Below, one piece after another: positions 23,936-49,000 of a stretch of DNA of 64,000 bases. How positions within the stretch are numbered: position 1 is the first letter of the stretch; each line of letters opens with the position of its first letter. Origin of the DNA: a virus; the IMG/VR virus record IMGVR_UViG_3300033072_000542, one strand, 5' to 3'. The position numbers and the translations under genes are program-made. Below the pieces are notes generated by a model. It did no database searches. It was not told the origin of the DNA and was given only the letters and a program-made list of their open reading frames with translations.

Positions 23936-24937
23936 TTAAACGAAACCCATTTTGCTACCAACTTTACGATTGTTGGTAGTTCCTTCAACTTTTTTATTGA
24001 AAACTTCTGCAATGCTATACTTACCTTCAGGCTTTGTTTCATATGAAACACCCAAACGTGCAGCCAACTTTTCTGCTTGTTCAGCATTCAATTGGTCAAA
24101 CGACAATACATCGAAACAACGACCTGGACGAATCAACGCAGGATCAACGTCACGGATGCTTGGCAAGTTAGTTGAGAAAATCAATTTCTTACCTTTAGTG
24201 GTAACCAATCCATCACCAACGTTCAAGAAACGGTGCATCATTGTGTTACCATCACTACGTGCTTTCAGGAAGTTATCTGAATCTTCCAGCACCATCACAC
24301 CAGTCTCATCTTCAATGAAACGTGCGAACAAATAGTCTTTCTCCAAGATTTGTGCATCGTATGTAACGATGGCTGAGGAGTTACTGTGAGCCAACAAACC
24401 ACGAATGAATGTTGTCTTACCAGTTCCTGGTGGTCCAATCAACAACAGAATGTTGGCGCTAGATTCCAAGAAGCGGTCATAGTAGTCTGCCAACTTTTCA
24501 TCCTTCAAGAAAGGATACATTTCATCAACAGGCAAACGTTCAGTATTCAATGGAACATTAACTGAGTTACCATCACCTGAATAAACCCATTCAATGTATG
24601 ATGTAACTTCTTCAAAGTTCTTCAAGAAAATATCTGATGCATTCTTGAGAAAAATCTCATCACCGAAGATATTGATATTGATTGTGTTTGAGTTTACATT
24701 GTAACGAATGAAGTTATCACCTTCAGTCACAATCATACCAGATGATTCGTTGAATTCTAGGATGTGGTCACCATCAAATTCATCTTCAATGAATTCGTGG
24801 CATTTAGCACGACCACCAAGAAGTTTCAACTCACGGCTTAATGTTGATTTGCCTGCTTGTGTTCTCGCATCAATTAGTTGCGAATACAAGTAATCACTAT
24901 AATCACTTGCGCCAATAAAAATCTTTTCATTACTCAT
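23936..24937 (-). CDS. AAA+ ATPase (unknown function)
   Basis: Walker A ILLLIGPPGTGKTTF. The likely true start is the internal ATG at 24937 (RBS AGGA, 6-nt spacer); the Arg-rich N-terminal extension of the listed ORF is probably not translated. Confidence 0.55.
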   Translation of the reverse strand: MSNEKIFIGASDYSDYLYSQLIDARTQAGKSTLSRELKLLGGRAKCHEFIEDEFDGDHILEFNESSGMIVTEGDNFIRYNVNSNTININIFGDEIFLKNASDIFLKNFEEVTSYIEWVYSGDGNSVNVPLNTERLPVDEMYPFLKDEKLADYYDRFLESSANILLLIGPPGTGKTTFIRGLLAHSNSSAIVTYDAQILEKDYLFARFIEDETGVMVLEDSDNFLKARSDGNTMMHRFLNVGDGLVTTKGKKLIFSTNLPSIRDVDPALIRPGRCFDVLSFDQLNAEQAEKLAARLGVSYETKPEGKYSIAEVFNKKVEGTTNNRKVGSKMGFV

Positions 24938-25089
24938 CTTGTGTCCTGCTACCTCTTCACTACTCCATGTCCAACCATTAAAAATACGTGTGCGTTTTAT
25001 CCGTCTACCAGAACGCACACCAACTCTTCGTGCGGCAATAACGGGTCTATTCATACCCATACTTGCTAGAATGCTATCTATACTTGAAC

Positions 25090-25308
25090 TCACTTTTTAC
25101 CTGTCATTGCATAAGCGATACACACGGGAGTTGAATTTGTATCATAAGTGCATTTCACCGAAACTGGATCAACACCCTTAGCGATAGCAGATTCAATATT
25201 TTTTGCCATGTTGTTTTGCTTGTTTGTTTCATAATTAAACGCACCAATGATTAGTGCGACTGCAACAATTGTAACACAGGTTGCAATAGTAATCAAGTCT
25301 TTATTCAT
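25090..25308 (-). CDS. Small membrane protein
   Basis: 72 aa with a hydrophobic N-terminal helix. Overlaps neighbouring genes by 4 nt. Confidence 0.35.
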   Translation of the reverse strand: MNKDLITIATCVTIVAVALIIGAFNYETNKQNNMAKNIESAIAKGVDPVSVKCTYDTNSTPVCIAYAMTGKK

Positions 25309-25862
25309 ATGATTCCTTTGTTTCTATCAATTTTGTCCGAATTGCGTTTATAGAAAATATGTCTTCCAATCTTTTCCACTTTCTGAAGTTTTGACCAACC
25401 AGGATTAACATAGTCGGCATGATAGTATGTTGCGCCTTTTGTTACATCATTCATCCTCTCAAAGTTGATAACGAGATTTGTAGCAATTTGCAATATCTCA
25501 TTATACAACGGAGTTTGTTTGATTGTCAAGCGCCTGTTGGTATATGTTGAATCACAATACCAGGAAAACTGACATAGATTACCAGTTTTTTGTTGAACAA
25601 CACCACAAATATCATCGGCATAATTACCGGTTTGTAGTCTGTTTAATGTTACGAATCCTACGGCTTGTTTGCCTTCATACGATTCGTGTCCAGCCTCAAA
25701 GTAAATGTTCTCTGCTAGGCAACTAACTTGTTTTTGTAGTTCCGTAGTCAATACATTATAACTCGCTTTAATTGGTAATTCAGGCTGTCTGATATTTACC
25801 ATTGACATAGTTAAGATAACTGCTGATAGCAATATACTAAAAAGTATAGGCATACTTCGCAT
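25305..25862 (-). CDS. Secreted SleB/CwlJ-family cell-wall hydrolase
   Basis: Signal-peptide-like N-terminus. AENIYFEAGHESYEGKQAVGFVTLNRLQ matches the SleB Hydrolase_2 signature. Confidence 0.55.
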   Translation of the reverse strand: MRSMPILFSILLSAVILTMSMVNIRQPELPIKASYNVLTTELQKQVSCLAENIYFEAGHESYEGKQAVGFVTLNRLQTGNYADDICGVVQQKTGNLCQFSWYCDSTYTNRRLTIKQTPLYNEILQIATNLVINFERMNDVTKGATYYHADYVNPGWSKLQKVEKIGRHIFYKRNSDKIDRNKGII

Positions 25863-25904
25863 ATTTTTCCTTTCTGTGTGTTAATGGACCTTTCGGTCCG
25901 ACCA

Positions 25905-26168
25905 TCAGGATTTCTTCGGCTTTGTGGCGTCAGGCAACATGGACACAAACGCATTCAGCGTTGATGCCTTGTCAATAATTTCTTTTTCTGATGGATATTT
26001 TGGATAGCCTGGATGTTTTGGTGTCTCTGCACCTTTTGATTTTGCAACATCACAGTCCATTGCGAACTGGTTGGCTATTTTTTCTCGTTCGCCGAAATAG
26101 TCTGATTCAAGCATATCTTTTGCCATCTTCAGTAATTCTAAGCGAATCTCAAACGGACTCATACTCAT
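25905..26168 (-). CDS. Hypothetical protein
   Basis: 87 aa. RBS AGGAG upstream. Confidence 0.35.
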   Translation of the reverse strand: MSMSPFEIRLELLKMAKDMLESDYFGEREKIANQFAMDCDVAKSKGAETPKHPGYPKYPSEKEIIDKASTLNAFVSMLPDATKPKKS

Positions 26169-26194
26169 GTTTTCTCCTGTGTTGTGTATGTGTA

Positions 26195-26488
26195 AATGGT
26201 GAGTTATTCTGTTACGAGGAAACTCACCGAAACCCTAGTCAGCGTTTAGGCTGCCAATGCGAACTTTTCATCGTTTGCGTTTACTTTATTTAGTTTTTAT
26301 ATCTACTCTGATAAGTTGTCCACTTCTTTACTCTTTGCCCTGTCGAAACCAAGTGCATCCCCATCAGAAACACATCAGAGGTCTTTTTACAAAATACTCC
26401 CAGTCCAATGTGTTTTTGGTGGAGATGGGGGGATTCGAACCCCCGTCCAGAACACCTTTCGAGTTGCTTCATACAACCATATTTTTAT
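26195..26488 (-). ncRNA. ssrA: Two-piece (circularly permuted) tmRNA (ssrA)-like gene
   Basis: Acceptor piece ...GGACGGGGGTTCGAATCCCCCCATCTCCACCA occupies about 26418-26480. A self-complementary spacer follows. The coding piece starts GGGGATGCACTTGGTTTCGACAGGG at 26362, with G3-U70 and a GGGGAUG/CAUCUCC acceptor pairing. The tag frame GCA AAC GAT GAA AAG TTC GCA TTG GCA GCC TAA (ANDEKFALAA) is at 26246-26278. A GGTGAGTT...AACTCACC hairpin follows. Confidence 0.7.
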
Positions 26489-26713
26489 TTATTCAATCAC
26501 AATCTCATTCTCATCACAAGAGGTCATTTCACCATCACAATAAATGCTATACTTAAAACCACCATCAGGAAATGGTGTATCTTTTGTCCATGAAGGAACA
26601 TACATGATAACACTATTTGTTAGCCAAAACTTATCTTCAGATTCAAACACTTTCCATTTGAACTTGCTTGTGCCATTCTTATGATCCACATTATAGCGAA
26701 TGTAATATCTCAT
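26489..26713 (-). CDS. Hypothetical protein
   Basis: 74 aa ORF. Confidence 0.3.
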   Translation of the reverse strand: MRYYIRYNVDHKNGTSKFKWKVFESEDKFWLTNSVIMYVPSWTKDTPFPDGGFKYSIYCDGEMTSCDENEIVIE

Positions 26714-26714
26714 G

Positions 26715-27914
26715 TCAAGTCTCTAGATGGTAAAATTTACTCATCGTCAATGGTAATCCAGTAAAACCTCTGACACCAAGTTTTATCAAGTCCGTAAATC
26801 TACTATAATATTCCCTACTGCCATGTTTCCATATTGACGATACATTTTTGTCCATATCATTTATCCACCAATTATCTAGCGGACGATTACCCAAAAAGCC
26901 TTCTTTAGGTGAAATGATACTGGGCTTCCAGTCAGGATATACAGTTTCATGGAAGTATTTGTATTTCAGATTTCCAGGATATTTCTTACTCTCACAATAA
27001 ACATGTGGACGGTGTCCCATCTTAAAGTATGGCTCTCTAGGCTCAAAATAATCAGGACTGTTTAGTTTTTCAACATATCTTTTTAGGATATGTGCTTGTT
27101 TAATAATTAACTTCACATCATCAGGACTGTGATAAAAAAACTCCAAGAAGTTTCTACCTTTCAAATCTGGATCAGCCATAATCATGCCTGCGGTATCACA
27201 CGAAAATATATCATTGAATCCCATAGAATATTTGTTTTCGTGTAATCTTAATGTTGGCTTATCGGTCCCATAAATTACACAAACTTTTTTACCATCGAGA
27301 ATCATATCCCAAATATGTTTGGTGTGCTTTATCCAGAAACCTCGATAAAGTGGTGCTGAAGGAAAACTGTTTGCACCAAACAATATTTCATGCTCATCAC
27401 GTTTACGAAACTCTTTCCATATGGTATTCAACATTTCAACTTCATCCAAAATCGTAATCTTCATTTTGGATGATCCATATCTTTTCAAAATTTCATCAAC
27501 TTGTGGCTTAACGTTGTGGAAATAATCTAAATTGTGGCATGTTCCTTCCACAACACCTGTTGATTTGTAACTATTGAAATTTACAATCTCATCCAATTTG
27601 ATATTGTATTTTAGGAATGTGTCAAGAATATTTTGACTATCTGGTCCACCACTATATGATAGAACCAGATAATCGTTGGTATCTCTGAGTTGTTGTGCTC
27701 TACGGCGGTAGAATTCTCCTATACCAACTTCAGGTTCAGGTTCAGTTGTCCAATCATACGTGTCAAATATGTCATCATTGAAATAAAATTTCAATTTCTG
27801 ACCAGTTCGCCTAGATTCAAATAATGCAAACTGTTTGTGTAAGAAACGTTGATTTCCAACTTCATAATGTCCAAGTCTATCAACAGAATTGACAGACATA
27901 TCAGTAATAATCAT
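26715..27914 (-). CDS. PP-loop ATP pyrophosphatase family protein (paralog 1)
   Basis: SGGxDS motif LSYSGGPDSQNILDTF. 399 aa. Confidence 0.5.
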   Translation of the reverse strand: MIITDMSVNSVDRLGHYEVGNQRFLHKQFALFESRRTGQKLKFYFNDDIFDTYDWTTEPEPEVGIGEFYRRRAQQLRDTNDYLVLSYSGGPDSQNILDTFLKYNIKLDEIVNFNSYKSTGVVEGTCHNLDYFHNVKPQVDEILKRYGSSKMKITILDEVEMLNTIWKEFRKRDEHEILFGANSFPSAPLYRGFWIKHTKHIWDMILDGKKVCVIYGTDKPTLRLHENKYSMGFNDIFSCDTAGMIMADPDLKGRNFLEFFYHSPDDVKLIIKQAHILKRYVEKLNSPDYFEPREPYFKMGHRPHVYCESKKYPGNLKYKYFHETVYPDWKPSIISPKEGFLGNRPLDNWWINDMDKNVSSIWKHGSREYYSRFTDLIKLGVRGFTGLPLTMSKFYHLET

Positions 27915-28786
27915 TCTGAAATAATTTCTTTGATATAGTTTTCAGGTGATGTGATGGATTGTTTTCCGAAATGGATGTCCATCTTCTTTCTAACTTCTAG
28001 CGATTCATTGCTACGCATATATTCTGCGATTGCTTTACGAAGTTTTTCAACCTCTTGTGGATTAGCAGACTTGTTTGCGAATAGAAAAATGTTATTAAAA
28101 TATCTGTAGTCATTAGGAACAGATAGTCCTAGTTCTCTTAATGTGGGAACATTCGGTAGATAATGTGAACGTTGTGGAGCAAATACTGCTAAACCTACCA
28201 ACTTATTCTCTTCAACATACTGATTGATAACGTTTGGAATGCTAACACCAATATTCAAGTGTCCACCAATCGCATCGGTTGTAATCATAGCACCACTTTT
28301 ATATGGAACTTCCACCACGTTACTTGAGACACTATACTTCTCTGCCATTTGGCGAATCAACTTTCCATTATTACTAGCAGTTGGAATTCCATAAGATAAA
28401 TTATTCGTCTTAGCATAGTCTAATGCTTCTTTGAAATTCTTATAGTTTGGATTTGGTCTAGAGAAAATGACGCCAGGAATTGTTCCCATGTATGCGACAG
28501 GAATCATATCTGTCAATGGATTAGTTGGCCAATTCTGAACTGGACCAAACAACAATACCATCTTATCAGTTTTATTCTCTGCCAAAGCAGCCGCACCAAT
28601 AACACCACCAGCACCAGGCTTCAAATCATATACAACACCATCCAACTGTTTGTTGAAGAATGGTTGCATCTCCAAAGCATACTTGTGAATCAAACCACCA
28701 GAGCCAACAGGCAAAATAACGGTAGTAGGTTCAGAACAAACGTTGAATGTCATAAAAACACTCAACAACATCATCTTAAATTTCAT
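27911..28786 (-). CDS. Periplasmic substrate-binding protein, TctC/Bug-like (putative)
   Basis: 291 aa. N-terminal signal peptide MKFKMMLLSVFMTFNVCS. Size and composition resemble tripartite tricarboxylate transporter binding proteins. Confidence 0.35.
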   Translation of the reverse strand: MKFKMMLLSVFMTFNVCSEPTTVILPVGSGGLIHKYALEMQPFFNKQLDGVVYDLKPGAGGVIGAAALAENKTDKMVLLFGPVQNWPTNPLTDMIPVAYMGTIPGVIFSRPNPNYKNFKEALDYAKTNNLSYGIPTASNNGKLIRQMAEKYSVSSNVVEVPYKSGAMITTDAIGGHLNIGVSIPNVINQYVEENKLVGLAVFAPQRSHYLPNVPTLRELGLSVPNDYRYFNNIFLFANKSANPQEVEKLRKAIAEYMRSNESLEVRKKMDIHFGKQSITSPENYIKEIISE

Positions 28787-30063
28787 TTTATATAATCCTT
28801 TAATAAATCAACAGCGTCAGGAAATGTTTTCTTCCAATCTGTGCCACGAATACTATCTAGTTTGTCTAAAAAAGACACATGATTTTCTATCATCATAACA
28901 CATTCTTCATGCGATTGTGTGCCGATATGTGATTCTAGATAATTACATATAAATTTTTTCCAACCATCAGGAAGATTCGATTCTTGATAAACACGAATAA
29001 CTTGTTGTTTCTGTTCATCAGGAATATATTTCATATCCATGTGAACAGGCGACATTAATGTCCTGAATGAATATTTGTCGTAACCAAGTTTCGAAAAGTG
29101 TTCATAGATTCTTATTGGTGCATATATGTTGTATATACCGACACATGATGAAATGTGTCTGATACCAAAACCTCTCTCTTGTATTTTATTCATGTTGGTA
29201 GTTAGTGTCTCGAAATTACCACCAAAACGAATTAAATTATATCTATCACCAATGTCATCACAACTTACTGATAGAACAATCTGTTTGAACTGCTTCAATT
29301 TATCTAAAATTTTGTCATTAATTACAGATAAGTTTGTGTCATATTCCAGTATAATATGTTTAGCGAGATCCGCTTCGATTAATTTATCCAATAAAATATT
29401 GTGGCCTTTAATAATAAAAGGTTCACCGCCCGTGATATACAAATGTCGTATTCTATGTTTTATCGTTTCGAATTGTTCCCACCATCTAGGTGAATCGTGC
29501 CAATCTAATCTTGCGCCACGATTTTCCTTTTCTATCGTGGCACCATAAATTATTTTCTCATCTTCATACCATTGATTACTATATTTCGAATTGCACATTG
29601 TGCATTTCATGTTACACACATTGGTAAATCTCAAATCTAAACTGATAGGTGTTTCATTTAATGAACCATCTTCCGTCAGATAATCTTTAACGTTATTCAG
29701 ATTGATGGCACCATCAACATCAGGTAACTGAACAAACGACCTGAATATGCGTAGAGAGTGTGCAGTTCCACCATTTCTTGAACTAACATCTTCACGTTTC
29801 CAACATATACCACACATTGGATGTTTTTCGTTTCTAGATTGTGCTAGACGTATTTGTTTGAACTTGTCACCATTTATTGCATCGAGAATACTATGTGTCA
29901 TAAGATTCATAATATTTCCTTCAGAATCCAATAATGTAGTATAATCTTTATTGCTAGAAGAACCATGTATTCCTGCATTGAAGCAACAAATTTTATAATC
30001 GCCAGCCGCATTTATCTGTAGACCAGACCACGGCAAAATACAAAACGTTTCTTTACTAAACAT
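28783..30063 (-). CDS. Radical SAM enzyme
   Basis: CNMKCTMC (CxxxCxxC) and SAM-binding ITGGEPF motifs. Additional N-terminal Cys cluster. Confidence 0.55.
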   Translation of the reverse strand: MFSKETFCILPWSGLQINAAGDYKICCFNAGIHGSSSNKDYTTLLDSEGNIMNLMTHSILDAINGDKFKQIRLAQSRNEKHPMCGICWKREDVSSRNGGTAHSLRIFRSFVQLPDVDGAINLNNVKDYLTEDGSLNETPISLDLRFTNVCNMKCTMCNSKYSNQWYEDEKIIYGATIEKENRGARLDWHDSPRWWEQFETIKHRIRHLYITGGEPFIIKGHNILLDKLIEADLAKHIILEYDTNLSVINDKILDKLKQFKQIVLSVSCDDIGDRYNLIRFGGNFETLTTNMNKIQERGFGIRHISSCVGIYNIYAPIRIYEHFSKLGYDKYSFRTLMSPVHMDMKYIPDEQKQQVIRVYQESNLPDGWKKFICNYLESHIGTQSHEECVMMIENHVSFLDKLDSIRGTDWKKTFPDAVDLLKDYIK

Positions 30064-30413
30064 TATTCAACGTGATGTGTAAAAGTTGATTCTGCGCCCA
30101 ACTCAGCCAATTTATTTTTCAATAAATCCATTCTCGTTTTAACAATCTCATGTTGATTAGCACCCTCAAGCACAGTTCTGGCAGCCTCCAAATTTTCCAC
30201 CGTATCAAATTCAAGTTTAACAACTAGAGTGTCGCCAACCTCTTCTTGTGTGGTACCAACAAAACCTGTTAGTGATTGAACATAATCAAAATAAGGATTT
30301 AGTATTGTTTCTATCTCATTTTGTGTAAAATATTGTGAATAATTCTCTGGAAAAATCCACGGCTTAATTCCCATAGGATTATTATTTGTGATTATTTTTA
30401 CAATTTTCGGCAT
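30063..30413 (-). CDS. Hypothetical protein
   Basis: 116 aa ORF within the enzyme cluster. Confidence 0.35.
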   Translation of the reverse strand: MPKIVKIITNNNPMGIKPWIFPENYSQYFTQNEIETILNPYFDYVQSLTGFVGTTQEEVGDTLVVKLEFDTVENLEAARTVLEGANQHEIVKTRMDLLKNKLAELGAESTFTHHVE

Positions 30414-30422
30414 TTCGTTTCC

Positions 30423-31268
30423 TTAAAATTTATATTTATCGAACAAAGTGAAGAATTGTTCCTTGGTCCAAACTTCTCCAGTCTTTTTGAGTGGCACTCT
30501 ATTGGATGCCATTAATGCAATCTCTGCTATTGTTTCTGGTGAATAGACTGGACGAAGTTTATCACGATATTCAATCTGATAAATTTTCTCTTTATGTCTG
30601 TTCCATGTGATATTATCCCTAGGCATCATGGCGTAGGCAATCTCTGGTGTATACAGAAAGAAGTCTATGTTTTTGCAACCAACAAAACAATAATCGGTAT
30701 AGAAGTCCCATTCATTTGAAATGAGATATACATCATCGGTTATCATATCATCACCATCACCCATGAAATGGTTTCCTGTGATTAGTGTTCCACCCAATTT
30801 CTCTACCATCTCAGCGACAATCAAAACCTGTGTTGCATTATAACCAACACCATTAAACTTTCTATAAATGTGTTCATCATAGAAGTCGATGAGTTGGCGC
30901 TCACTTATTTCAATTATAGTTGGTGTAATTCCTAGTTCGTCACATACTGCATATGCATAATCATTCTCGATTTGCTTACCACAGACAACAATAATAGGAT
31001 GTATATCTATACCATTCCTATGGAAGCAACGTAGAACAAAATCTGAATCCATACCACCACTTAGTGCAAGATATAGTTTGTCGTAGTCTTTTGCTATCTC
31101 ACAACAAGTATAATCTGCGGCTTCCTGATATGACATTTCTTTGAATGGATATAAATTTATACCCATAGAAAAATCTGCGGCTTTATTGGTGAATCTGTCT
31201 GCCAGATTCGTATACAACCATTTATTCTTTGTTAACATTTTTTCTATACCACTCACCCAAGTGAACAC
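30423..31268 (-). CDS. PP-loop ATP pyrophosphatase family protein (paralog 2)
   Basis: LALSGGMDSDFVLRCF SGGxDS motif. 281 aa. Confidence 0.5.
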   Translation of the reverse strand: MFTWVSGIEKMLTKNKWLYTNLADRFTNKAADFSMGINLYPFKEMSYQEAADYTCCEIAKDYDKLYLALSGGMDSDFVLRCFHRNGIDIHPIIVVCGKQIENDYAYAVCDELGITPTIIEISERQLIDFYDEHIYRKFNGVGYNATQVLIVAEMVEKLGGTLITGNHFMGDGDDMITDDVYLISNEWDFYTDYCFVGCKNIDFFLYTPEIAYAMMPRDNITWNRHKEKIYQIEYRDKLRPVYSPETIAEIALMASNRVPLKKTGEVWTKEQFFTLFDKYKF

Positions 31269-32061
31269 AATGATCCTCGTAGCGGTTCATCGCTTTCATC
31301 AATGGAAAATATTTACCCTTTTGCAATTCAGCAGTCGCAACATCTTCTCGGAATACTTCCTCACACGTTTCAAAAATTCTGCGTGTGGTAGCATCGACCG
31401 ATGGATCATAATAGAACTGTGATATCCATTTGAAGCCAAATTCTGTATTGATATCGTTCGGTATCACATTATTGACCATAACACATCCGGGTGAATATTC
31501 AATAAACAAGAATGGGAAAACATACAACCACCAGCCAGTAGGATGTGATTGTAGAATCCATCCATCTCCCTGATCCATCTGTATGTCTTCCAATTTAACT
31601 TGGCGTGACAGGAATGGATGAATACCATCCTCATATACGTGAAGTAAATCTGCCTCAGCATCAAGCAACCACATCCAACTGCCTTCACTTGAGCCTTCCA
31701 GTGAGTGGTGATACACCAAAGATTTTTCACTAGCCAAATCATCAACCCATTTATGGTCAGGCTCAACAAAATCTTTGAAAATCATTCCACTGCGACCAGT
31801 TTCTACCTTACCACAATGCAACTTCTTATCATTGTTTATTGGATTACCATCTTTGTCCCATCTGAAATTGTGGAACTTACACCAAACATCTTGCACCACT
31901 TTACCTGGTGTCTCCAATGGATACATTCTGTGTGGACAGAAACGGTGCATCAAACTGACGCCATCATCCTTTTTGTTTAAGATAAAATCTGGTAAAACCA
32001 AATTGCCCTTCTCAAGTGCTGATATGTGTGCGAAAAATTTTGGTGTTCTAATCTTAAACAT
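31222..32061 (-). CDS. Rieske [2Fe-2S] domain protein (oxygenase-like)
   Basis: CPH-x16-CKFH Rieske motif (CPHRMYPL...CKFHNF). Confidence 0.5.
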   Translation of the reverse strand: MFKIRTPKFFAHISALEKGNLVLPDFILNKKDDGVSLMHRFCPHRMYPLETPGKVVQDVWCKFHNFRWDKDGNPINNDKKLHCGKVETGRSGMIFKDFVEPDHKWVDDLASEKSLVYHHSLEGSSEGSWMWLLDAEADLLHVYEDGIHPFLSRQVKLEDIQMDQGDGWILQSHPTGWWLYVFPFLFIEYSPGCVMVNNVIPNDINTEFGFKWISQFYYDPSVDATTRRIFETCEEVFREDVATAELQKGKYFPLMKAMNRYEDHCVHLGEWYRKNVNKE

Positions 32062-32063
32062 AA

Positions 32064-33152
32064 TTACTTTCTACGACCATTATAAACTTCATAAAAACGT
32101 GAGAATGTGGTATCATCAATTTCGTAACCACAACGTCTTTTCATATTTTCTATTCCAGCGGAATGAAACTTATACAACTTCGATTCTTTATCTGCCAACA
32201 TATATTGGTCTCGCAAACTGACTGTTTTGTTATTGCTTTTTCCAGACTTGAATGCTAATGGTTTTCTCAATTTATAAACTATGTCATGCACACTTTTATT
32301 ACCTACTGTAGCACCGACATCTTTATCATATCCGAAATATTTGTGAATCAGATATTCTTTGTTCAATTCATGTAGTTGTTTTAACAAGACTTCGGGATAT
32401 GTTGGATCCCAATAAAAATTAATTCTATCACAATAATCTGCTTTACCCAATTCACCATAACTGTATGCTGATGCATCAGTAAACTTGAAACCATTTATAG
32501 CAAATCTTCCACCCATCATAGGTTGACCAGAATCATCGTTACCATGGAACAGATATGGTTTATCTCTACCCATAACTATTGCAACTTTTTTATTTTTGTA
32601 TTCTTCAGGAACAACATATTTCTCAATGTCACGCCAATACCAGTGATGTGGACTGAACCAAGTGCCAACATAATCAATCCAATTTTCACCATATTGACTA
32701 ATGCTCAAATTCATCGGATCATCAATTATGTCGGAGTAATCACATATCTGAAAGATTGATTCCAATCCAAGTTCTTTAATGTATGGAAAAACATTATGAT
32801 ATAGTTCACCATTATGATTTTCATCTACACCATATGCAGAATCTTTTTTCAGAGCACCAACAGTAATTATTTTATCAATCTTAATGTTGTTGAAATGGAA
32901 CGTTTCGAGAATTGTGGTTGAGTCATAACCACCACTATATGCTAAAATAACATAATCATAACTATCACGAATCCTCTGTGCTTGTTGTTTGTAGTAATAC
33001 TCCAAAGATTCTGGCGGTTCTATATGCCAATCTATTTTGGAGTAAACATCATCATAGTAATAAAAGAATATTTCTTCACCTGTGTGATGTTTGTGAGCAC
33101 AAGCGTCAATTTTAGATGTGAAAGTTTTTCCACTCTTCGTATAATAATGCAT
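32064..33152 (-). CDS. PP-loop ATP pyrophosphatase family protein (paralog 3)
   Basis: LAYSGGYDSTTILETF SGGxDS motif. 362 aa. Confidence 0.5.
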   Translation of the reverse strand: MHYYTKSGKTFTSKIDACAHKHHTGEEIFFYYYDDVYSKIDWHIEPPESLEYYYKQQAQRIRDSYDYVILAYSGGYDSTTILETFHFNNIKIDKIITVGALKKDSAYGVDENHNGELYHNVFPYIKELGLESIFQICDYSDIIDDPMNLSISQYGENWIDYVGTWFSPHHWYWRDIEKYVVPEEYKNKKVAIVMGRDKPYLFHGNDDSGQPMMGGRFAINGFKFTDASAYSYGELGKADYCDRINFYWDPTYPEVLLKQLHELNKEYLIHKYFGYDKDVGATVGNKSVHDIVYKLRKPLAFKSGKSNNKTVSLRDQYMLADKESKLYKFHSAGIENMKRRCGYEIDDTTFSRFYEVYNGRRK

Positions 33153-33167
33153 AATGAAAAAATAAAG

Positions 33168-34247
33168 TTATAAAGGATTACAGTTGATAAAATAAACTGC
33201 AGGTGATTTTAATATGTAGTAGTATAGTCCCGATGATGAATCATATGCGGCTGCATACCAACTTGCACCGTTTTGCAAAGACAATCTTTGTGTTGAACCA
33301 GCGTGCGCTAAAATACATGTTCCATCACCACCTTTGGCACCATTACTGAATGCACCACCACCATATGAATCACCACCTGCACCACCGCCACCATATCCAT
33401 CTGTGCCAGGATATGATATACTTGTGCCGCCATGTCCACCGCCACCGCCAGCACCGCCAGCGGCACCGCCATTATAGTCACCACCACCTCCGCCGCCGCC
33501 CCCAAAGCGACCTACCCATGATGTGCCAAAATATATGTTTTGTCCATCACCACCATATCCATTGGTGTTTGTTGCATCATCAACACCGCCGCCACCGCCA
33601 CCGCCTGTGCTATTTCCTGATGCACCAGGACTGTGATAACCGCCACCTGCGTTTGCTGGACCACTGGAACCACTAACTCTAGGATATCCACTATCACCAC
33701 CACGATATGTGTTTGTTTCTTGAGCAGTTCCTGATCCTGTCCAATAATAGCGTGATAATCCTCTTTGACCACCAGTCGCCGCAGGTGAATATGAGCCATA
33801 TGTGAATGATGTTTGAATACCATTTCCCGCTCTCAAATAATATTGTGCGGGCTGACCGTATCCACCACCGGTATCACCATAAACACCTGCCGCACCACCA
33901 GCGCCTACTGTTGTTGAAGCGGAGGTTCCAATTTGCCAATCTATCAATCCTTGGTATATACCACCACCACCGCCACCGCCACCGCCACCGCCAACGTTGT
34001 CTGCGGTACCTACTGCACCACCACCTCCTCCACCAACGATGAGGAAATATACGGGAATAGTTGGTGCGGTTTTGCGTTTTCCATAAAAATTACTAATTGA
34101 TATTGAAGATCCTGTTGAAGGAAATGTTCCTGTAGTTCCAGCGTCCGTCCACCAAGTTTGTCCTCTATACGAACTTAAACTTGTGCCATATCCGAACTCT
34201 GCATTTATCTCGGACATTGATAGTGATCCGGAAGATTTGATTGTCAT
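33168..34247 (-). CDS. Glycine-rich repetitive protein
   Basis: 359 aa with poly-Gly runs (GGGGGGGGGGG). Encoded by a GC-rich ggtggcggtgg repeat DNA that differs from the local composition. Confidence 0.45.
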   Translation of the reverse strand: MTIKSSGSLSMSEINAEFGYGTSLSSYRGQTWWTDAGTTGTFPSTGSSISISNFYGKRKTAPTIPVYFLIVGGGGGGAVGTADNVGGGGGGGGGGGIYQGLIDWQIGTSASTTVGAGGAAGVYGDTGGGYGQPAQYYLRAGNGIQTSFTYGSYSPAATGGQRGLSRYYWTGSGTAQETNTYRGGDSGYPRVSGSSGPANAGGGYHSPGASGNSTGGGGGGGVDDATNTNGYGGDGQNIYFGTSWVGRFGGGGGGGGDYNGGAAGGAGGGGGHGGTSISYPGTDGYGGGGAGGDSYGGGAFSNGAKGGDGTCILAHAGSTQRLSLQNGASWYAAAYDSSSGLYYYILKSPAVYFINCNPL

Positions 34248-34273
34248 CTATTTTTCTCCATACAATAGTATAT

Positions 34274-37165: not shown

Positions 37166-37237
37166 AATAAACTCCATTTGATTAAGAAACTTAATTATAC
37201 AAGGAAAAATGCCATCTGTCAACCAGATGGCTGGTAA

Positions 37238-38440: not shown

Positions 38441-39382
38441 TTTGCTTTTGCGTGTTTAACTATCCAAGTTTTCCAATTATAGCGGGAAATGTTGGAAATG
38501 TCAACATTATTTTCACGGCACCAGCACCATGCTTCCAAGTAGAACGGAAATTCTTTAGTCATTATGATACCCTCGAAGTAATACTTTTGAATACAGTTTG
38601 ATAATGTGCGATATCTAGGATTTTATAGCCATGCAGTAGTGTAGATTCTACCATAGCCAGGGATTCGTTCAACAATTCATCCGAGTCCTTGGGATAATTG
38701 TCAACATATTTTTTATCATAATCGGTAAGTGTATCTACCATAAATGCGAACTGGTCCATGTTAGCCTTTCAATGTAAAACGGCTCAATACGGCCTGTGCT
38801 TCGGTGAAGTTTTCAATACCACCGACTTCTCTCAATTCAAGTTCTTCCAGAACTAATTCCGCTTTTGCTTTCTGGATTAAATTCAGCATATAGAATAATG
38901 TATCCGTATCCATTGCATCAGCCCACTCAGAAAATTCTTCCTGGGAACAACTTAACAGATACTCAATATTTTCTCGGTCAAAATCATTCATGCTCACCCT
39001 TTCGTTAACATAATAACAATTATAACACAGGTCTGGATATTATGCAACCAGACTGTTGTAAAAAAACAACTTAACCTTGGAGTAGTTGGCGACCGTCGGA
39101 TTCCTTCAGGTCTTCCTCAAATTCCTGCATCTTCAATCGGGCCAGTAATTCTCTCAAATCACGTGCCTCAGATTGGTCAGCCTGAATTCGGGCTTCAACT
39201 TCTTTTATTTGTTTTTGGATTGTGTCCAGAATAGCCATAGTCTTCATCCTCTTTCATTAAACGATAAAACGATTTGTCGTGGTGTTTTTTCTTTTGTTTG
39301 TATTGAAAAGAATCATCTTCATACTTTCGGACTTTAGTCTTACTTGTCTTTTCAATTTTCGTTGCGCCAATCATACTTCCTC

Positions 39383-39964
39383 TTACAAGATTAAATCTGC
39401 TACACCTAGTTTAACAAGTTCTTCGGCGGACATCCAAACGTCACTAGGCGATAACAGTTTGGTTTTTACTTCACGTGCAGACATGCCCGTGGCTTCCTGA
39501 AGAATTTTAGACATACGGTTATTTGTTAATTCGGCTTCTTTTGTGAAAGATTTTAAGTCGTGATGTTTACCTTCGTAGGTATCAGAATACTGGTGACACA
39601 TTATACCACAGTTTCTTGTGATAAAGCGGTAATGTTTAGTGCCTGATGCGAAAATTAAAAATGCAGCCGACATAACTGCACCAACACCAAATGTATGGAT
39701 AGGCTTATTACTGAGGCGCATAATATCAATCAAGCCAAGTGCTTGGTATAAATCACCACCTTGTGAATTGATATAGAGTTTAAGTGGTTCATCGCCTGGT
39801 ATAGAATTTTCATAAATGATCCACTTGATAGCGGCATTAATATTTTCCTCTTCAATATCACCAGTCAAAAAGAATGTGTGATTTTTTAAGAGGACAACGT
39901 CAAAGATTTCCTGTAGTGGAACAGGCAAATCAGCGATATCGTTTTCTTTTCTTTTCCCAGCCAT
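39383..39964 (-). CDS. clpP: ClpP-like serine protease subunit
   Basis: INSQGGDLYQALGLIDIMR and GVGAVMSAAFLIFASG resemble ClpP motifs. Probable start MAGKRKEND. Confidence 0.55.
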   Translation of the reverse strand: MAGKRKENDIADLPVPLQEIFDVVLLKNHTFFLTGDIEEENINAAIKWIIYENSIPGDEPLKLYINSQGGDLYQALGLIDIMRLSNKPIHTFGVGAVMSAAFLIFASGTKHYRFITRNCGIMCHQYSDTYEGKHHDLKSFTKEAELTNNRMSKILQEATGMSAREVKTKLLSPSDVWMSAEELVKLGVADLIL

Positions 39965-40886
39965 AGGCGGATTGGACGATAGAGGCAATGTCATGTTTAG
40001 GTTTGAAATTCAATAAACGTTTTGCTTTAGATATGTCAGCAACAAGAATGTCAGGATCACCTTCACGGGCCGCTTTGATTGTATAATCGACCTGCTTACA
40101 AGTTACTTTCTTGACTGTTTGTATAACTTCTAAAACTGTATATCCTACACCATTTCCTAAATTGATAACTTCGGACGAATTGCCTGCATCAAGATATTTC
40201 ATGGCTTCAATGTTAGCATCAACTACATCCTCCACATGGACATAATCACGCTCGGCAGTTCCATCAACTGTCCTATAATTGTCACCATATACCTCAAAAG
40301 TATTTAGATTTTGGAGTATTCTGGGAATCAGGTGTGTCTCTGGATAATGGTCTTCTCCAAGTTCACCATCAGAATCAGCACCAGCAAGATTAAAGAATCG
40401 GAAGATAATATAATTCAAACCGGAATCTTCAATTGCATTTTCGGCAGCCATTTTACTGTTGGCGTATGGATTGTTGTTTGTTGTGCATTCATCTTCAGGT
40501 AGAGGTAGTGAACCTGGGAAATAAACACCAGCAGTGGATGAGAAAATGATATTCTTGATATCATATTTTTTCATAGCATTAATCACATTAATGGTACCTG
40601 CGGTGTTGTTGAACCAAAACTCTGTTGGATGTTTAACTGATTCACCAACTTCGATTCTACCAGCAAAGTGAAATACAGTATCAACTTTGTAATTGACGAA
40701 TACAGATTCTAATGCGTTTTTATCTGTAACATCGGATTGCCACCAGCGGTCCCAATAATGGTGTCTTGAATGTTGTAAGTCAAGACCAATTACAAAGTGT
40801 CCTTCTTTCTTTAGGCGTTTGCAGAGGTGCGAACCGAGATAGCCTGCGGCACCTGTGACCAAGATAATGGACTGTTTGTTTTCCAT
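39930..40886 (-). CDS. NAD-dependent epimerase/dehydratase (UDP-glucose 4-epimerase-like)
   Basis: VTGAAGYLGSH Rossmann motif and YANSK catalytic YxxxK. Confidence 0.65.
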   Translation of the reverse strand: MENKQSIILVTGAAGYLGSHLCKRLKKEGHFVIGLDLQHSRHHYWDRWWQSDVTDKNALESVFVNYKVDTVFHFAGRIEVGESVKHPTEFWFNNTAGTINVINAMKKYDIKNIIFSSTAGVYFPGSLPLPEDECTTNNNPYANSKMAAENAIEDSGLNYIIFRFFNLAGADSDGELGEDHYPETHLIPRILQNLNTFEVYGDNYRTVDGTAERDYVHVEDVVDANIEAMKYLDAGNSSEVINLGNGVGYTVLEVIQTVKKVTCKQVDYTIKAAREGDPDILVADISKAKRLLNFKPKHDIASIVQSAYGWEKKRKRYR

Positions 40887-41578
40887 GGAAATTTACCGTG
40901 TAGTGTTAGATTGATATGATTACCCGATTCGAAAAAATCTGCCTTGACAGAATTCTCATTACCATCTAGTCGATAGTTGACTGTGTGATGGTTGGTGCAT
41001 TCATATTTTGGGAAGTGTGTTTTTAGTGCATTAAAAAATTGTCTATCAGCGCCCCATTGACCATACCATGCGTGTCCAATACGAACAGCAATATCACGCT
41101 TAATAGCAAAACAGGACGTGTCAATATGGAAGACATGCTTATCAAAGAAGACTGGCCACTTACCAAGACTTTCACAATTGTCTTCACAAAGGAATTCACC
41201 ATTAACATCAACAATTTTTCGTAGTGAATAAACCCAGTCATAGTTTCCTGCCTTCATTGTATCAACAAGAGTTTGGATGTGATTAGGATCAATCCAATTA
41301 TCCTCATCAAGATAGATGATAATGTCAGCGTTCACTAAAAATGAACAGGCCGCATATACACGGTGACCATACCAGCCTTTACCGACATTATCCTCTAAAT
41401 CAACGAAACGCAATTTACTTGCGCCCATAACTTGAGTTTTTACATTTGAACGATACTCTTTACCATCAATAAACACATAATGCAAAACATCGGGATAAGT
41501 TTGCTTATCTACCGAATCAATACATTTAGTTAGGTGCTTACTTCCGATTGTCGGAGTTACTACCGCTACCTTCATCAT
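40811..41578 (-). CDS. Family 2 glycosyltransferase (GT-A)
   Basis: VAVVTPTIG... and YLDEDN DxD motif. Confidence 0.55.
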   Translation of the reverse strand: MMKVAVVTPTIGSKHLTKCIDSVDKQTYPDVLHYVFIDGKEYRSNVKTQVMGASKLRFVDLEDNVGKGWYGHRVYAACSFLVNADIIIYLDEDNWIDPNHIQTLVDTMKAGNYDWVYSLRKIVDVNGEFLCEDNCESLGKWPVFFDKHVFHIDTSCFAIKRDIAVRIGHAWYGQWGADRQFFNALKTHFPKYECTNHHTVNYRLDGNENSVKADFFESGNHINLTLHGKFPWKTNSPLSWSQVPQAISVRTSANA

Positions 41579-44902: not shown

Positions 44903-44946
44903 TTTCTATCAAACATGTATTAATTATACCAGGATTCTGGAACTTG

Positions 44947-45150
44947 TCAAGCGAATACTTGACTAATTTGGTCAGTTTCCGCCAGAATACGGGTGCGAAA
45001 CTCACCGAAAACCACGATTGGAGCATCTAATACTATAGTATTACTTACTTTGCCACCGTATTTGACACGGCTTTCGACCACTCGGCCAATGTAAGGAATC
45101 TCGCCAAGATACAAGCCAGACACTTTTTTACCCTCTAAATTCCAAGACAT
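44947..45150 (-). CDS. Hypothetical protein
   Basis: 67 aa. RBS GAGGAG. Early promoter upstream. Confidence 0.4.
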   Translation of the reverse strand: MSWNLEGKKVSGLYLGEIPYIGRVVESRVKYGGKVSNTIVLDAPIVVFGEFRTRILAETDQISQVFA

Positions 45151-45933: not shown

Positions 45934-46069
45934 GTGTTTAGTGATGTTTGTGATACCAATTCAAAATATACATGGCGACAGCAAGAATTATATATGAAAT
46001 GAAATTAATTGTCAATGCACTCCATGCTAATCCCTTCTGTAAAAGGTATTTGAAAATTTGTTTACACAT

Positions 46070-46834: not shown

Positions 46835-46991
46835 TATGCGATCCTATGTGTTGGGAGTGGTGTGTTCGATTCAGTAACCGATAATATAGCCATAACAAAA
46901 AGCACCACCACTGGTGACTTTTTGAGCATTTGTTTCCTTTGACCTAAGTCAATACTGGTATTTATATCGTCAGCATGACTGGAAACTTGAT

Positions 46992-47067: not shown

Positions 47068-47156
47068 ATTTTGAAACATGCTACTTCTTAGCGAGGTTGG
47101 TTTGGAATCCAACTAACATGCTTCAAAATGGGAACTCTTACGAATTCCCCAAACTC

Positions 47157-48996: not shown

Positions 48997-49000
48997 ATAT

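What the first reader, a model, noticed from the sequence alone, without database searches (positions are those of the whole stretch)
26195..26488. Circularly permuted (two-piece) tmRNA gene with tag ANDEKFALAA inside a T4-like phage
On the minus strand a tmRNA 3' end (GGACGGGGGUUCGAAUCCCCCCAUCUCCACCA) comes first. It is followed by a ~54 nt self-complementary spacer (AAACACAU...AUGUGUUU). Then comes a tmRNA 5' end, GGGGAUGCACUUGGUUUCGACAGGG. Its GGGGAUG pairs with CAUCUCC and preserves the G3-U70 alanine identity pair. After that a resume codon and tag frame read GCA AAC GAU GAA AAG UUC GCA UUG GCA GCC UAA. The acceptor piece lying upstream of the coding piece is the known permuted ssrA arrangement, but I do not expect it in a T4-like phage, and none of the few phage tmRNAs I know of are permuted. 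It raises the question of whether the phage supplies its own trans-translation tagging RNA, and which host SmpB and protease it would work with.
Basis: partly seen in the sequence, partly recalled or inferred. Interest (0 to 1): 0.85.

Follow-up and report, generated by a model that had tools for sequence, protein, structure and literature searches.

The report
Two-piece tmRNA gene in T4-like phage
This uncultured T4-like phage carries a complete, well-conserved "permuted" tmRNA gene (a ribosome-rescue RNA made as two pieces), but such genes have already been reported in related aquatic phages, so it is a new example rather than a new kind of thing.

Summary
ARAGORN calls a permuted tmRNA at 26155-26509(-) with tag ANDEKFALAA. 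Rfam gives beta_tmRNA 148.8 bits (E 1e-45) and tmRNA_permuted 127.8 bits. Comparison with 17 further unique relatives from viral contigs shows covariation in all main helices: the acceptor stem (G3·U70 invariant), T-arm, P2, the 54-nt spacer helix and a 3' hairpin. Tag codons vary synonymously while the peptide stays A-N-D-x-x-F/Y-A-L-A-A. The window is a T4-like myovirus, distantly related to Melnitz, pelagimyophages and cyanomyoviruses.

The claim of novelty does not hold. Buchholz et al. 2022 (PMC9004378) described a two-piece tmRNA in the T4-like phage Melnitz and counted 53 two-piece forms among 18,146 phage genomes. Here, 51 IMG/VR contigs matched a permuted-tmRNA pattern.

The gene sits at a fixed site (PhoH–exonuclease–tmRNA–ORF87–hydrolase…gp33–gp59–gp32) in a large uncultured clade. 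Relatives transcribe it from σ70-type early promoters close upstream. The window uses a perfect one 216 nt upstream, after a 7.8-kb island replaced the original.

No SmpB was found in the window, so host SmpB, AlaRS and RNase P are presumably used. A phage ClpP gene (39383-39994) co-occurs with the tmRNA in this clade, which is suggestive but not corrected for phylogeny.

Verdict: a new member of a known kind, of moderate to low interest.

The parts
26690..26718 (-). Perfect sigma70-type (T4 early-type) promoter, TTGACA-17-TATAAT, about 216 nt upstream of the tmRNA gene. It is the likely promoter of the pre-tmRNA transcript.
   Evidence: 12/12 match. It is one of 10 perfect sites in the window, all on the minus strand, against 0.1 expected by chance. 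Relatives have equivalent promoters 13-24 nt upstream of the acceptor piece.
26479..26689 (-). 5' leader of the presumed precursor. It overlaps the 74-aa ORF (26489-26713), whose start codon lies upstream of the predicted transcription start.
   Evidence: The promoter's -10 box lies inside codons 7-8 of ORF74. ORF74 has no family match and no homologue other than an identical copy in L109.
26417..26478 (-). Acceptor piece, about 62 nt. P2 closing-helix 5' strand GGUUG 26478-26474; P2a 5' strand UGUUCUG 26454-26448; T stem-loop 26444-26428; acceptor 3' strand CAUCUCC 26427-26421; discriminator A 26420; encoded CCA 26419-26417.
   Evidence: Rfam alignments. Pairing counts over 18 unique family members: P2 outer 98%, P2a 100%, T arm 100% and acceptor 100% paired, with several pair types per position. 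RNAalifold also finds the covariation.
26363..26416 (-). Intervening spacer of 54 nt, removed during maturation. Its base forms a roughly 12-bp helix that continues the acceptor stem and includes the CA of the CCA.
   Evidence: 91% of cells are paired across 18 sequences, most positions show 2-4 pair types, and 0 of 1000 partner shuffles reach the observed value. RNAalifold and the single-sequence MFE fold predict it too.
26195..26362 (-). Coding piece, about 168 nt. Acceptor 5' strand GGGGAUG 26362-26356 with G3; P2a 3' strand 26342-26336; P2 closing 3' strand CAACU 26318-26314; hairpin at the PK1 position 26313-26300; resume codon GCA 26278-26276; tag ORF 26278-26246; 3' hairpin 26228-26198, whose loop CCUCGU (26219-26214) can pair with ACUAGG (26239-26234).
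   Evidence: The 3' end is approximate (the Rfam match ends at 26191), and no intrinsic terminator follows.
26246..26278 (-). Tag reading frame ANDEKFALAA followed by UAA.
   Evidence: ARAGORN. In 17 ten-codon tags the amino acids at positions 1-3, 7, 9 and 10 are invariant while the codons vary synonymously; Leu8 alone uses TTG, TTA, CTA and CTG.
25905..26168 (-). Conserved 87-aa ORF of unknown function, directly downstream and probably co-transcribed (its RBS, AGGAG, follows the tmRNA).
   Evidence: Homologues lie downstream of the tmRNA in many relatives. There is no family match.
39383..39994 (-). Phage-encoded ClpP-family protease subunit, a possible downstream partner of the ALAA tag. 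The functional link is inferred, not shown.
   Evidence: PF00574 at 114.6 bits. Ser, His and Asp motifs are present by eye. It co-occurs with the tmRNA in clade members and is adjacent to it in L022 and L050.
26485..34264 (-). 7.8-kb accessory island inserted between the exonuclease gene and the tmRNA. It is context, not part of the tmRNA, and its right edge removed the ancestral tmRNA promoter.
   Evidence: The closest relative, L055, has only about 1.2 kb here, and homology resumes at window 26484. Relatives have 0-8 kb at this site. Island gene content.

Best explanation
This is a functional, circularly permuted ssrA gene. It belongs to a family of Rfam beta-type two-piece tmRNAs that is inherited at a fixed locus in a large clade of uncultured aquatic T4-like myoviruses.

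Proposed mechanism, with each step marked as shown or inferred:
1. Host RNA polymerase transcribes the gene early from a sigma70-type promoter. The promoter is shown; the timing is inferred.
2. The precursor folds so that the acceptor stem is extended by a conserved spacer helix. This is shown by covariation.
3. Host RNase P cuts 5' of G1 and host 3'-processing enzymes expose the encoded CCA, releasing the 54-nt spacer. This is inferred from how Caulobacter two-piece tmRNA matures.
4. The ~62-nt acceptor piece and ~168-nt coding piece stay joined by the acceptor stem and helix P2. The pairings are shown.
5. Host AlaRS charges the RNA through G3·U70, and host SmpB delivers it to stalled ribosomes. 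This is inferred; no SmpB was found in the window.
6. Translation resumes at GCA and appends ANDEKFALAA. Peptide-level selection on the tag is shown.
7. The C-terminal ALAA is a ClpXP-type degron, and the phage supplies its own ClpP subunit. The gene is shown; the link to the tag is inferred.

The likely benefit is continued ribosome rescue and amino-acid recycling after the phage shuts off host transcription and degrades host mRNA.
For: - Detection: ARAGORN tmRNA* with tag; Rfam beta_tmRNA 148.8 bits and tmRNA_permuted 127.8 bits over the full models.
- Family: 51 IMG/VR contigs with the permuted arrangement, all called permuted by ARAGORN, plus more from ClpP- and PhoH-anchored loci. Family members score 128-163 bits on the beta model.
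- Structure: covariation in the T arm, acceptor stem (G·U invariant), P2a, P2 closing helix, spacer helix and 3' hairpin.
- Tag: invariant amino acids with synonymous codon changes.
- Fixed locus: conserved synteny PhoH–exonuclease–tmRNA–ORF87–hydrolase…gp33–gp59–gp32. 19 of 28 PhoH-anchored loci with at least 9 kb of downstream flank carry a tmRNA on the same strand.
- Expression signals: a perfect promoter upstream; relatives have their own sigma70-type promoters 13-24 nt upstream, and some have terminators downstream.
- Partners: ClpP present; no SmpB or ClpX among the listed Pfam matches for 61 ORFs.
- Precedent: Melnitz and other aquatic phages (PMC9004378).
Against: - There are no expression or processing data. 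Maturation into two pieces, alanylation and SmpB binding all rest on analogy.
- At the PK1 position the window has only a 4-bp hairpin and at most a 3-bp second stem, whereas relatives have a proper H-type pseudoknot.
- The window copy has lost the promoter that its relatives keep just upstream, and it has no terminator. Its expression therefore depends on a promoter 216 nt upstream and on 5' leader processing.
- The host is unknown, so compatibility with host SmpB, AlaRS and ClpX cannot be assessed.
- Only 64 kb of the genome was visible, so an SmpB gene elsewhere cannot be excluded.
- The Pfam bulk scan listed only 25 of 38 matched families.
Confidence: 0.85

Rival explanations
1. The RNA acts mainly as a decoy or inhibitor of the host trans-translation system, for example by titrating host SmpB or competing with host tmRNA, rather than as a productive tagger. 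The CDS-less tmRNA of mycobacteriophage DS6A is reported to work this way.
For: PMC11915505 cites the report that the DS6A form inhibits endogenous tmRNA when expressed in E. coli. No phage SmpB was found, so the phage RNA must compete for host SmpB. PK1 is reduced in the window copy.
Against: The tag frame is intact and under clear peptide-level purifying selection across the family. The resume-codon context (UAAAC GCA) and the stop codon are invariant in the alignment. A pure decoy would not need these.
Confidence: 0.07
2. It is a non-functional remnant: a fragment of host ssrA picked up by imprecise excision or recombination (attP-like), or a decaying pseudogene.
For: Host ssrA genes are common integration sites, and ssrA fragments occur in prophages (stated in PMC9004378). 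The window copy lacks its own proximal promoter and a terminator.
Against: Both pieces are complete with full-length covariance-model matches. Compensatory changes maintain every main helix across sequences 68-87% identical. The gene occupies the same site in many lytic T4-like genomes. Only one of 185,579 species' genomes matched the phage-type pattern with an encoded CCA, although that pattern was strict.
Confidence: 0.03
3. It is a functional tmRNA whose main purpose is selective proteolysis rather than ribosome rescue: with the phage ClpP it destroys host or early phage proteins and recycles amino acids.
For: A ClpP gene lies 13 kb upstream on the same strand. ClpP and tmRNA co-occur: 17 of 27 ClpP loci with enough flank carry a tmRNA, and a PhoH-anchored 2x2 table reads 10/1/2/5 with Fisher p = 0.013. 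The two are directly adjacent in L022 and L050. Buchholz et al. raise amino-acid recycling as one possibility.
Against: The association is not corrected for shared ancestry. A tmRNA without a nearby ClpP (the L052 group) and a ClpP without a tmRNA both occur. No ClpX or SspB was seen in the window. tmRNA tags only stalled nascent chains, so selectivity would need a phage factor that makes specific mRNAs non-stop. This overlaps the best explanation and differs only in emphasis.
Confidence: 0.05

Closest known systems
Two-piece ssrA of Methylophilales (OM43) phage Melnitz and related pelagimyophage or virome contigs (Buchholz et al. 2022, PMC9004378)
   Same: A T4-like aquatic myovirus. The gene is permuted and yields a two-piece tmRNA. 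It lies downstream of an early-type promoter and upstream of the gp33 (late-transcription coactivator) region. The window's gp6 is about 41% identical to that of Melnitz, Mosig and HTVC008M.
   Different: The paper reports the Melnitz tmRNA as alphaproteobacterial-type and coupled to a glutamine riboswitch. The window's tmRNA is Rfam beta-type (148.8 bits), has no riboswitch match even at E <= 10, and was not matched to Melnitz by sensitive blastn.
Bacterial betaproteobacterial two-piece tmRNA (Rfam RF01850; Sharkady & Williams 2004, cited from memory and via PMC11915505)
   Same: It is the best-scoring subtype model, with the same order of elements: P2, T-arm, acceptor, spacer, tRNA-like 5' part, hairpin or PK1, an AND..ALAA-type tag and a post-tag hairpin. 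The consensus tag is very similar.
   Different: The phage genes encode the full CCA (an inserted A relative to the model consensus) and lack the model's terminal GC-rich hairpin. The window's mid-P2 pairs do not fit the model, being marked non-canonical. Only one bacterial genome (Herbaspirillum sp. YR522, 107 bits, odd tag ANEPQFVAYGT) matched the phage-type pattern. The gene is carried by a lytic phage.
Caulobacter crescentus two-piece tmRNA (Keiler, Shapiro & Williams 2000; cited via PMC9004378 and PMC11915505)
   Same: This is the experimentally established paradigm. A single precursor is cut by tRNA-processing enzymes into an acceptor piece and a coding piece, which stay base-paired and function in tagging.
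   Different: It is an alpha-type sequence family and a chromosomal gene of a cellular organism. Processing of the phage RNA has not been shown.
tmRNAs of Stenotrophomonas Menderavirus phages (Marzo, Moby, Mendera and others) and of Synechococcus phage BUCT-ZZ01
   Same: ARAGORN calls them permuted and Rfam places them in the beta type (94.5-94.6 bits). They share 75-85% identity with parts of the window gene.
   Different: They belong to different phage lineages and have different tags (VAANDDSYTVRIAA and ANDETFSMALAA). In Marzo the gene lies inside a tRNA cluster. In BUCT-ZZ01 it is not annotated and lies under a 'hypothetical protein' CDS.
One-piece tmRNAs of mycobacteriophages (cluster C, e.g. 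LordLeafolot) and of phage G
   Same: They are phage-borne tmRNA genes that accompany large tRNA sets.
   Different: They have the standard, unpermuted gene form, unrelated tags, and hosts that are Actinobacteria or Firmicutes.

Membership tests
Permuted (two-piece) tmRNA, Rfam RF04321 / RF01850 | Covariance-model score above the curated gathering threshold | tested here: met
   RF01850 scores 148.8 bits (threshold 84) and RF04321 scores 127.8 bits (threshold 47), both over the full model length.
Permuted (two-piece) tmRNA, Rfam RF04321 / RF01850 | Permuted gene order: T-arm and acceptor 3' strand with CCA lie upstream of the acceptor 5' strand and tag frame, separated by an intervening segment | tested here: met
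   The CCA is at 26419-26417, the spacer at 26416-26363 and GGGGAUG at 26362-26356. ARAGORN flags the gene as tmRNA*.
Permuted (two-piece) tmRNA, Rfam RF04321 / RF01850 | Acceptor stem formed between the two pieces, with the G3·U70 alanine identity pair | tested here: met
   All 7 pairs form in all 18 unique sequences. Position 5 covaries (A-U, C-G, G-C, U·G) and G3·U70 is invariant.
Permuted (two-piece) tmRNA, Rfam RF04321 / RF01850 | T-arm with a tRNA-like T-loop (GGUUCGAnUCC) | tested here: met
   The 5-bp stem is 100% paired, with 4 pair types at position 2 and 2 at position 3. The loop UUCGAAU is conserved.
Permuted (two-piece) tmRNA, Rfam RF04321 / RF01850 | Helix P2 joins the 5' part of the acceptor piece to the coding piece | tested here: met
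   P2a is 100% paired and the closing helix 98% paired, with compensatory variants GGUUG/CAACU, UGCUG/CAGCA, AUUC/GAAU and UGUCG/CGGCA. The middle of P2 is not conserved and fits the beta model poorly in the window.
Permuted (two-piece) tmRNA, Rfam RF04321 / RF01850 | Resume codon and short tag frame ending in a hydrophobic, Ala-rich C-terminus and a stop codon | tested here: met
   The frame reads GCA…GCC UAA = ANDEKFALAA. The peptide is conserved while codons vary synonymously across the family.
Permuted (two-piece) tmRNA, Rfam RF04321 / RF01850 | Pseudoknot PK1 between P2 and the resume codon | tested here: inconclusive
   The window has a covarying 4-bp hairpin (UAUC/GAUA) but only a 3-bp candidate second stem (AGU/ACU). 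Relatives in the L016/L030 subgroup can form a full H-type pseudoknot (manual analysis).
Permuted (two-piece) tmRNA, Rfam RF04321 / RF01850 | Precursor is processed into two RNAs that stay base-paired; the RNA is alanylated and binds SmpB | not testable with these tools
   This needs northern blots or RNA-seq and biochemistry. The only indirect support is the conserved spacer helix and the encoded CCA.
T4-like myoviruses (aquatic cyano/pelagi-type group) | T4-type baseplate and replication/transcription core genes | tested here: met
   gp6, gp7, gp5, gp48-like, gp25 and T4_baseplate proteins; gp32, gp59, gp33 and RNase H. The best relatives are Melnitz, Mosig and HTVC008M (gp6 about 41%) and cyanomyoviruses (gp32 about 58%). 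Head and terminase genes lie outside the window.
Melnitz-type ssrA with glutamine riboswitch | A glnA-type glutamine riboswitch in the 3' part of the ssrA locus | tested here: not met
   No riboswitch family matched at gathering thresholds in the window or at E <= 10 in 25800-27000.

The most novel reading that the evidence does not exclude
In this clade of T4-like phages the tmRNA is one half of a phage-encoded 'tag-and-degrade' module. The phage supplies both the tagging RNA (degron ...ALAA) and a ClpP protease subunit, and the two genes are co-inherited within a few kb on the same strand (directly adjacent in some members). During infection the phage would then control not only ribosome rescue but also the proteolytic fate of tagged proteins. 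A second, smaller novelty is that the spacer of the precursor forms a conserved, covarying ~12-bp helix that sequesters the CCA, which may serve as a processing or timing signal.
Probability: 0.2. Interest if true: 0.6.

Novelty: new member of a known kind. Interest (0 to 1): 0.3.

Why it matters
The finding does not change what is known: aquatic T4-like phages are already reported to carry two-piece tmRNAs. Its value is incremental.

- It shows that a beta-type permuted ssrA is a stable, vertically inherited, structurally constrained gene at a fixed locus in a very large uncultured phage clade. At least 599 IMG/VR contigs share a PhoH 80% or more identical.
- The tag peptide itself is under selection, which argues that phage tmRNAs really tag proteins rather than only mimic tRNA.
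- It yields two testable leads: a conserved helix in the precursor's spacer, and co-occurrence with a phage ClpP.

If the ClpP link held, it would suggest that phages take over the host's quality-control proteolysis pathway, not just ribosome rescue.

Tried and rejected
- Close relatives in GenBank phages: megablast of 14 kb around the locus against 50,697 phage records found nothing. The phage is uncultured and only distantly related to Melnitz, pelagimyophages and cyanomyoviruses.
- Glutamine riboswitch as in Melnitz: not found at Rfam gathering thresholds or at E <= 10.
It returned only Herbaspirillum sp. YR522, in a high-GC chromosomal context with an atypical tag. The pattern was probably too strict, because the Rfam beta consensus does not encode the final A. 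The result therefore does not show that the type is rare in bacteria, and the host remains unknown.
- Sharkady & Williams 2004 (PMC516066) is not held in the library, so statements about the bacterial beta lineage rest on Rfam, PMC11915505 and memory.
- SmpB, ClpX or SspB in the window: none among the listed Pfam matches of 61 ORFs. Only 25 of 38 matched families were displayed (down to E about 2e-11), and only 64 kb of the genome is visible.
- A late-promoter reading (AATAAATA at 26493-26486) and a weak proximal -10 were considered from the sequence alone. I did not pursue them because relatives clearly use sigma70-type promoters.
- My first register for the spacer helix gave 43% pairing. Shifting it by one, so that the helix starts at the CA of the CCA as RNAalifold predicts, gave 91%.
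- A middle-P2 pairing ACUC/GAGU is compensated in L055 (ACUU/AAGU) but absent in other members, so I do not claim it.
- The exact-protein look-up gave sample accessions but no environmental metadata.
Full report
**1. The observation**

- A T-arm and acceptor 3' strand ending in an encoded CCA: GGACGGGGGUUCGAAUCCCCCCAUCUCCACCA, with the CCA at 26419-26417.
- A 54-nt spacer at 26416-26363, whose ends are complementary.
- The tmRNA 5' end GGGGAUGCACUUGGUUUCGACAGGG, starting at 26362.
- The frame GCA AAC GAU GAA AAG UUC GCA UUG GCA GCC UAA at 26278-26246.

ARAGORN calls a permuted tmRNA at 26155-26509(-) with the tag ANDEKFALAA. Rfam gives beta_tmRNA 148.8 bits (gathering 84, E = 1.1e-45) at 26191-26531(-) and tmRNA_permuted 127.8 bits (gathering 47) at 26246-26478(-), both over the full model.

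**2. What the window is**

The window is part of a T4-like myovirus.
- It encodes T4-type baseplate proteins (gp6, gp7, gp5, gp48-like and gp25-like) together with gp32, gp59, gp33 and RNase H.
- It carries 27 tRNA genes at 46991-53912.
- G+C content is about 0.38.
- No GenBank phage is close at the DNA level.
- At the protein level the nearest cultured relatives are Melnitz, Mosig and HTVC008M (gp6 about 41%) and cyanomyoviruses (gp32 about 58%).

So 'T4-like' is right, and the phage belongs to the aquatic T4-like assemblage.

**3. Is it a real, constrained gene?**

A pattern specific to the permuted arrangement found 51 IMG/VR contigs, and ARAGORN calls a permuted tmRNA in all of them. About 25 of these (16 unique sequences including the window, alignment A1) resemble the window gene over its full length at 68-80% identity. 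More relatives came from ClpP- and PhoH-anchored loci, including L055/L113, whose genome is 83-87% identical to the window.

RNAalifold found compensatory changes in the T arm, acceptor stem, P2a and the spacer. I then counted pairings on anchored segments of 18 unique members:
- P2 closing helix: 98% paired. Variants are GGUUG/CAACU, UGCUG/CAGCA, AUUC/GAAU and UGUCG/CGGCA.
- P2a: 100% paired.
- T arm: 100% paired.
- Acceptor stem: 100% paired, with G3·U70 invariant and four pair types at position 5.
- Spacer helix: 91% paired, with 2-4 pair types at most positions, and 0 of 1000 partner shuffles reaching the observed value. It starts at the CA of the CCA.

The hairpin at the PK1 position covaries (UAUC/GAUA, CGUC/GACG, CGAC/GUCG, CGGU/ACCG, CAGU/ACUG). 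In the window its second stem is at most 3 bp, whereas the L016/L030 subgroup can form a full H-type pseudoknot (manual analysis). The 3' hairpin (GGUGAGUU/AACUCACC, 26228-26198) has a different compensated stem in almost every member and a conserved loop that can pair with ACUAGG upstream.

The tag is under peptide-level selection. In 17 ten-codon tags, positions 1-3, 7, 9 and 10 never change amino acid although the codons vary (Ala7 uses GCA, GCT and GCG; Asp3 uses GAT and GAC). Leu8 uses TTG, TTA, CTA and CTG in 16 of 17 tags, with one Ile. Position 6 is always F or Y, and positions 4-5 vary freely.

The single-sequence fold recovers the acceptor stem plus spacer helix, the T arm, a hairpin holding the stop codon, and the 3' hairpin (z = -2.05). 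These results rule out a fragment or pseudogene.

**4. Genomic context**

In relatives the tmRNA sits at a fixed site: dsDNA-binding protein / small regulator / PhoH / exonuclease / tmRNA / ORF87 / cell-wall hydrolase / small membrane protein / gp33 / gp59 / deoxyribonucleotidase / gp32. Melnitz likewise has its ssrA upstream of the gp33 coactivator gene.

The clade is large. At least 599 IMG/VR stretches encode a PhoH of the same type, and the best 80 are 80-96% identical. Of 28 such loci with at least 9 kb of downstream flank, 19 carry a permuted tmRNA on the same strand.

The window differs by a 7.8-kb block (26485-34264) between the exonuclease gene and the tmRNA. L055 has about 1.2 kb there, and homology resumes at 26484, six bases before P2. 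Other members have 0-8 kb at this site, some with divergent versions of the same genes.

**5. Expression signals**

The window has 10 perfect TTGACA-N16-18-TATAAT sites, all on the minus strand, against 0.1 expected. One, at 26718-26690, lies 216 nt upstream of the tmRNA. Its -10 box is inside the 74-aa ORF that precedes the tmRNA, so that ORF is more likely a leader than a gene. It has no homologues beyond an identical copy.

L113/L055, L141, L088, L047, L024, L006 and L162 have sigma70-type promoters 13-24 nt upstream of the acceptor piece. L024 and L026 have intrinsic terminators after the coding piece. The island insertion therefore seems to have displaced the window's proximal promoter.

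No terminator follows the window's coding piece. The ribosome-binding site of ORF87 follows directly. No glutamine riboswitch is present.

**6. Partners**

No SmpB, ClpX or SspB family appeared among the listed Pfam matches of 61 ORFs of at least 90 aa. Only 25 of 38 matched families were shown, and only 64 kb of the genome is visible. The RNA must therefore use host SmpB, AlaRS, EF-Tu and RNase P, which is an inference.

The phage does encode a ClpP-family protein at 39383-39994(-) (PF00574, 114.6 bits), with Ser, His and Asp in the expected motifs by eye. It lies among early or middle genes, not in a head module.

Evidence on a ClpP-tmRNA link:
- Of 27 ClpP loci with at least 8.5 kb of downstream flank, 17 have a permuted tmRNA 1.8-7.7 kb downstream on the same strand.
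- The two genes are directly adjacent in L022 and L050.
- A PhoH-anchored 2x2 table gives ClpP+tmRNA+ 10, ClpP+tmRNA- 1, ClpP-tmRNA+ 2 and ClpP-tmRNA- 5 (Fisher p = 0.013).

This is suggestive only, because the loci are related by descent and both genes also occur alone. I found no paper linking a phage tmRNA to a phage ClpP. Pf16, another T4-like phage, carries SspB but no tmRNA.

**7. Comparison with what is known**

Buchholz et al. 2022 (PMC9004378) described a two-piece ssrA in the T4-like OM43 phage Melnitz, downstream of an early promoter. They found 402 of 18,146 phage genomes with a tmRNA, comprising 133 unique forms. Of these, 53 were two-piece by ARAGORN and 50 of the 53 were aquatic. 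Permuted tmRNAs were present in 17 of 47 Melnitz-like contigs. The tmRNA database paper lists 79 unique phage tmRNAs and 11,946 permuted ones overall (PMC11915505).

The window gene differs from Melnitz's in being Rfam beta-type rather than alpha-type and in lacking a riboswitch. Beta-type forms are widespread in phages:
- the window's family, at 128-163 bits;
- Stenotrophomonas phage Marzo, at 94.6 bits;
- cyanophage BUCT-ZZ01, at 94.5 bits, where the gene is unannotated and lies under a hypothetical CDS.

The one bacterial copy I retrieved (Herbaspirillum, 107 bits) scores lower than the window family. That scan used an overly strict pattern, so it says little about bacteria.

**8. Verdict**

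This is a genuine and very probably functional permuted tmRNA gene, and a new member of a known kind. The most likely mechanism has four steps:
- early transcription by host RNA polymerase;
- processing by host tRNA-maturation enzymes into two base-paired pieces;
- alanylation and SmpB-dependent entry into stalled ribosomes;
- tagging of nascent chains with ANDEKFALAA for ClpXP-type degradation.

The likely benefit is sustained ribosome rescue and amino-acid recycling after host shut-off. The anatomy, conservation, tag selection, promoter and ClpP gene are shown here. Processing, charging, SmpB use, timing and the ClpP link are inferred. Interest is moderate to low (0.3). The covarying spacer helix and the ClpP co-occurrence are the only leads that go beyond the published picture.

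Noticed in passing
window 50314-50388 (-): A tRNA with anticodon CUA (ARAGORN labels it 'tRNA-Pyl'; Rfam tRNA 55.8 bits), which looks like an amber suppressor, sits within the 27-tRNA array. TAG is the rarest stop codon among 66 ORFs (TAA 42, TGA 20, TAG 4).
   Followed up: partly
window 26485-34264 (-): A 7.8-kb accessory island lies immediately upstream of the tmRNA. It encodes a radical SAM + SPASM protein (28783-30063), a TctC-family periplasmic binding protein (27911-28786), a Rieske/ring-hydroxylating oxygenase-like protein (31222-32061), a weak QueC/PP-loop-like protein (30423-31268) and two paralogous unknowns (362 and 399 aa). Divergent versions (27-55% aa identity) occupy the same site in L126/L062, L130, L150/L152, L115 and L142. 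The closest relative, L055, lacks the island.
   Followed up: partly
window 39383-39994 (-): A ClpP-family protease gene (PF00574, 114.6 bits) lies among early/middle genes of a T4-like phage, which would normally use a gp21-type prohead protease. It co-occurs with the tmRNA across the clade.
   Followed up: partly
window 23936-25093 (-): A classic AAA ATPase (PF00004; phrog_14322, unknown function) lies between the hydrolase/TM gene and gp33, about 1 kb downstream of the tmRNA. It is present in about 50 fetched loci but absent from the L052-type relatives. Whether it could partner with ClpP was not tested.
   Followed up: no
window 47157-48608 (-): A DUF2828 + DUF7788 protein (phrog_850, 'RNA-binding protein', E = 6e-141) lies directly beside the tRNA array. 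From memory it is TROVE/Ro-like, which hints at an RNA-handling role.
   Followed up: no
window, ten sites on the minus strand: 25500-25529, 26690-26718, 37194-37222, 38476-38504, 44923-44950, 45987-46015, 51007-51035, 53178-53205, 53950-53978, 54206-54234: Ten perfect TTGACA-N16-18-TATAAT promoters, all on one strand (0.1 expected by chance). This is a clear early-promoter set for this phage.
   Followed up: partly
L001 (Synechococcus phage BUCT-ZZ01, ON615601.1) 2975-3393: A permuted, Rfam beta-type tmRNA (tag ANDETFSMALAA) is not annotated in the GenBank record and overlaps a 'hypothetical protein' CDS. It is a beta-type tmRNA in a phage isolated on a cyanobacterium.
   Followed up: partly
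L054 (Herbaspirillum sp. YR522, NZ_AKJA01000027.1) 1757-2102: This was the only bacterial genome to match the phage-type permuted pattern with an encoded CCA. Its tag is atypical (ANEPQFVAYGT**), it sits in a high-GC chromosomal context, and it scores 107 bits on beta_tmRNA. Whether this genome also has a standard ssrA was not checked.
   Followed up: no
window, several ORFs (listed; coordinates not resolved): Other accessory families are present in the window: SPFH/Band_7, Peptidase_S11 (D-Ala-D-Ala carboxypeptidase), TnsA-like endonuclease, WYL_2, and an epimerase/glycosyltransferase pair at 39930-41578.
   Followed up: no
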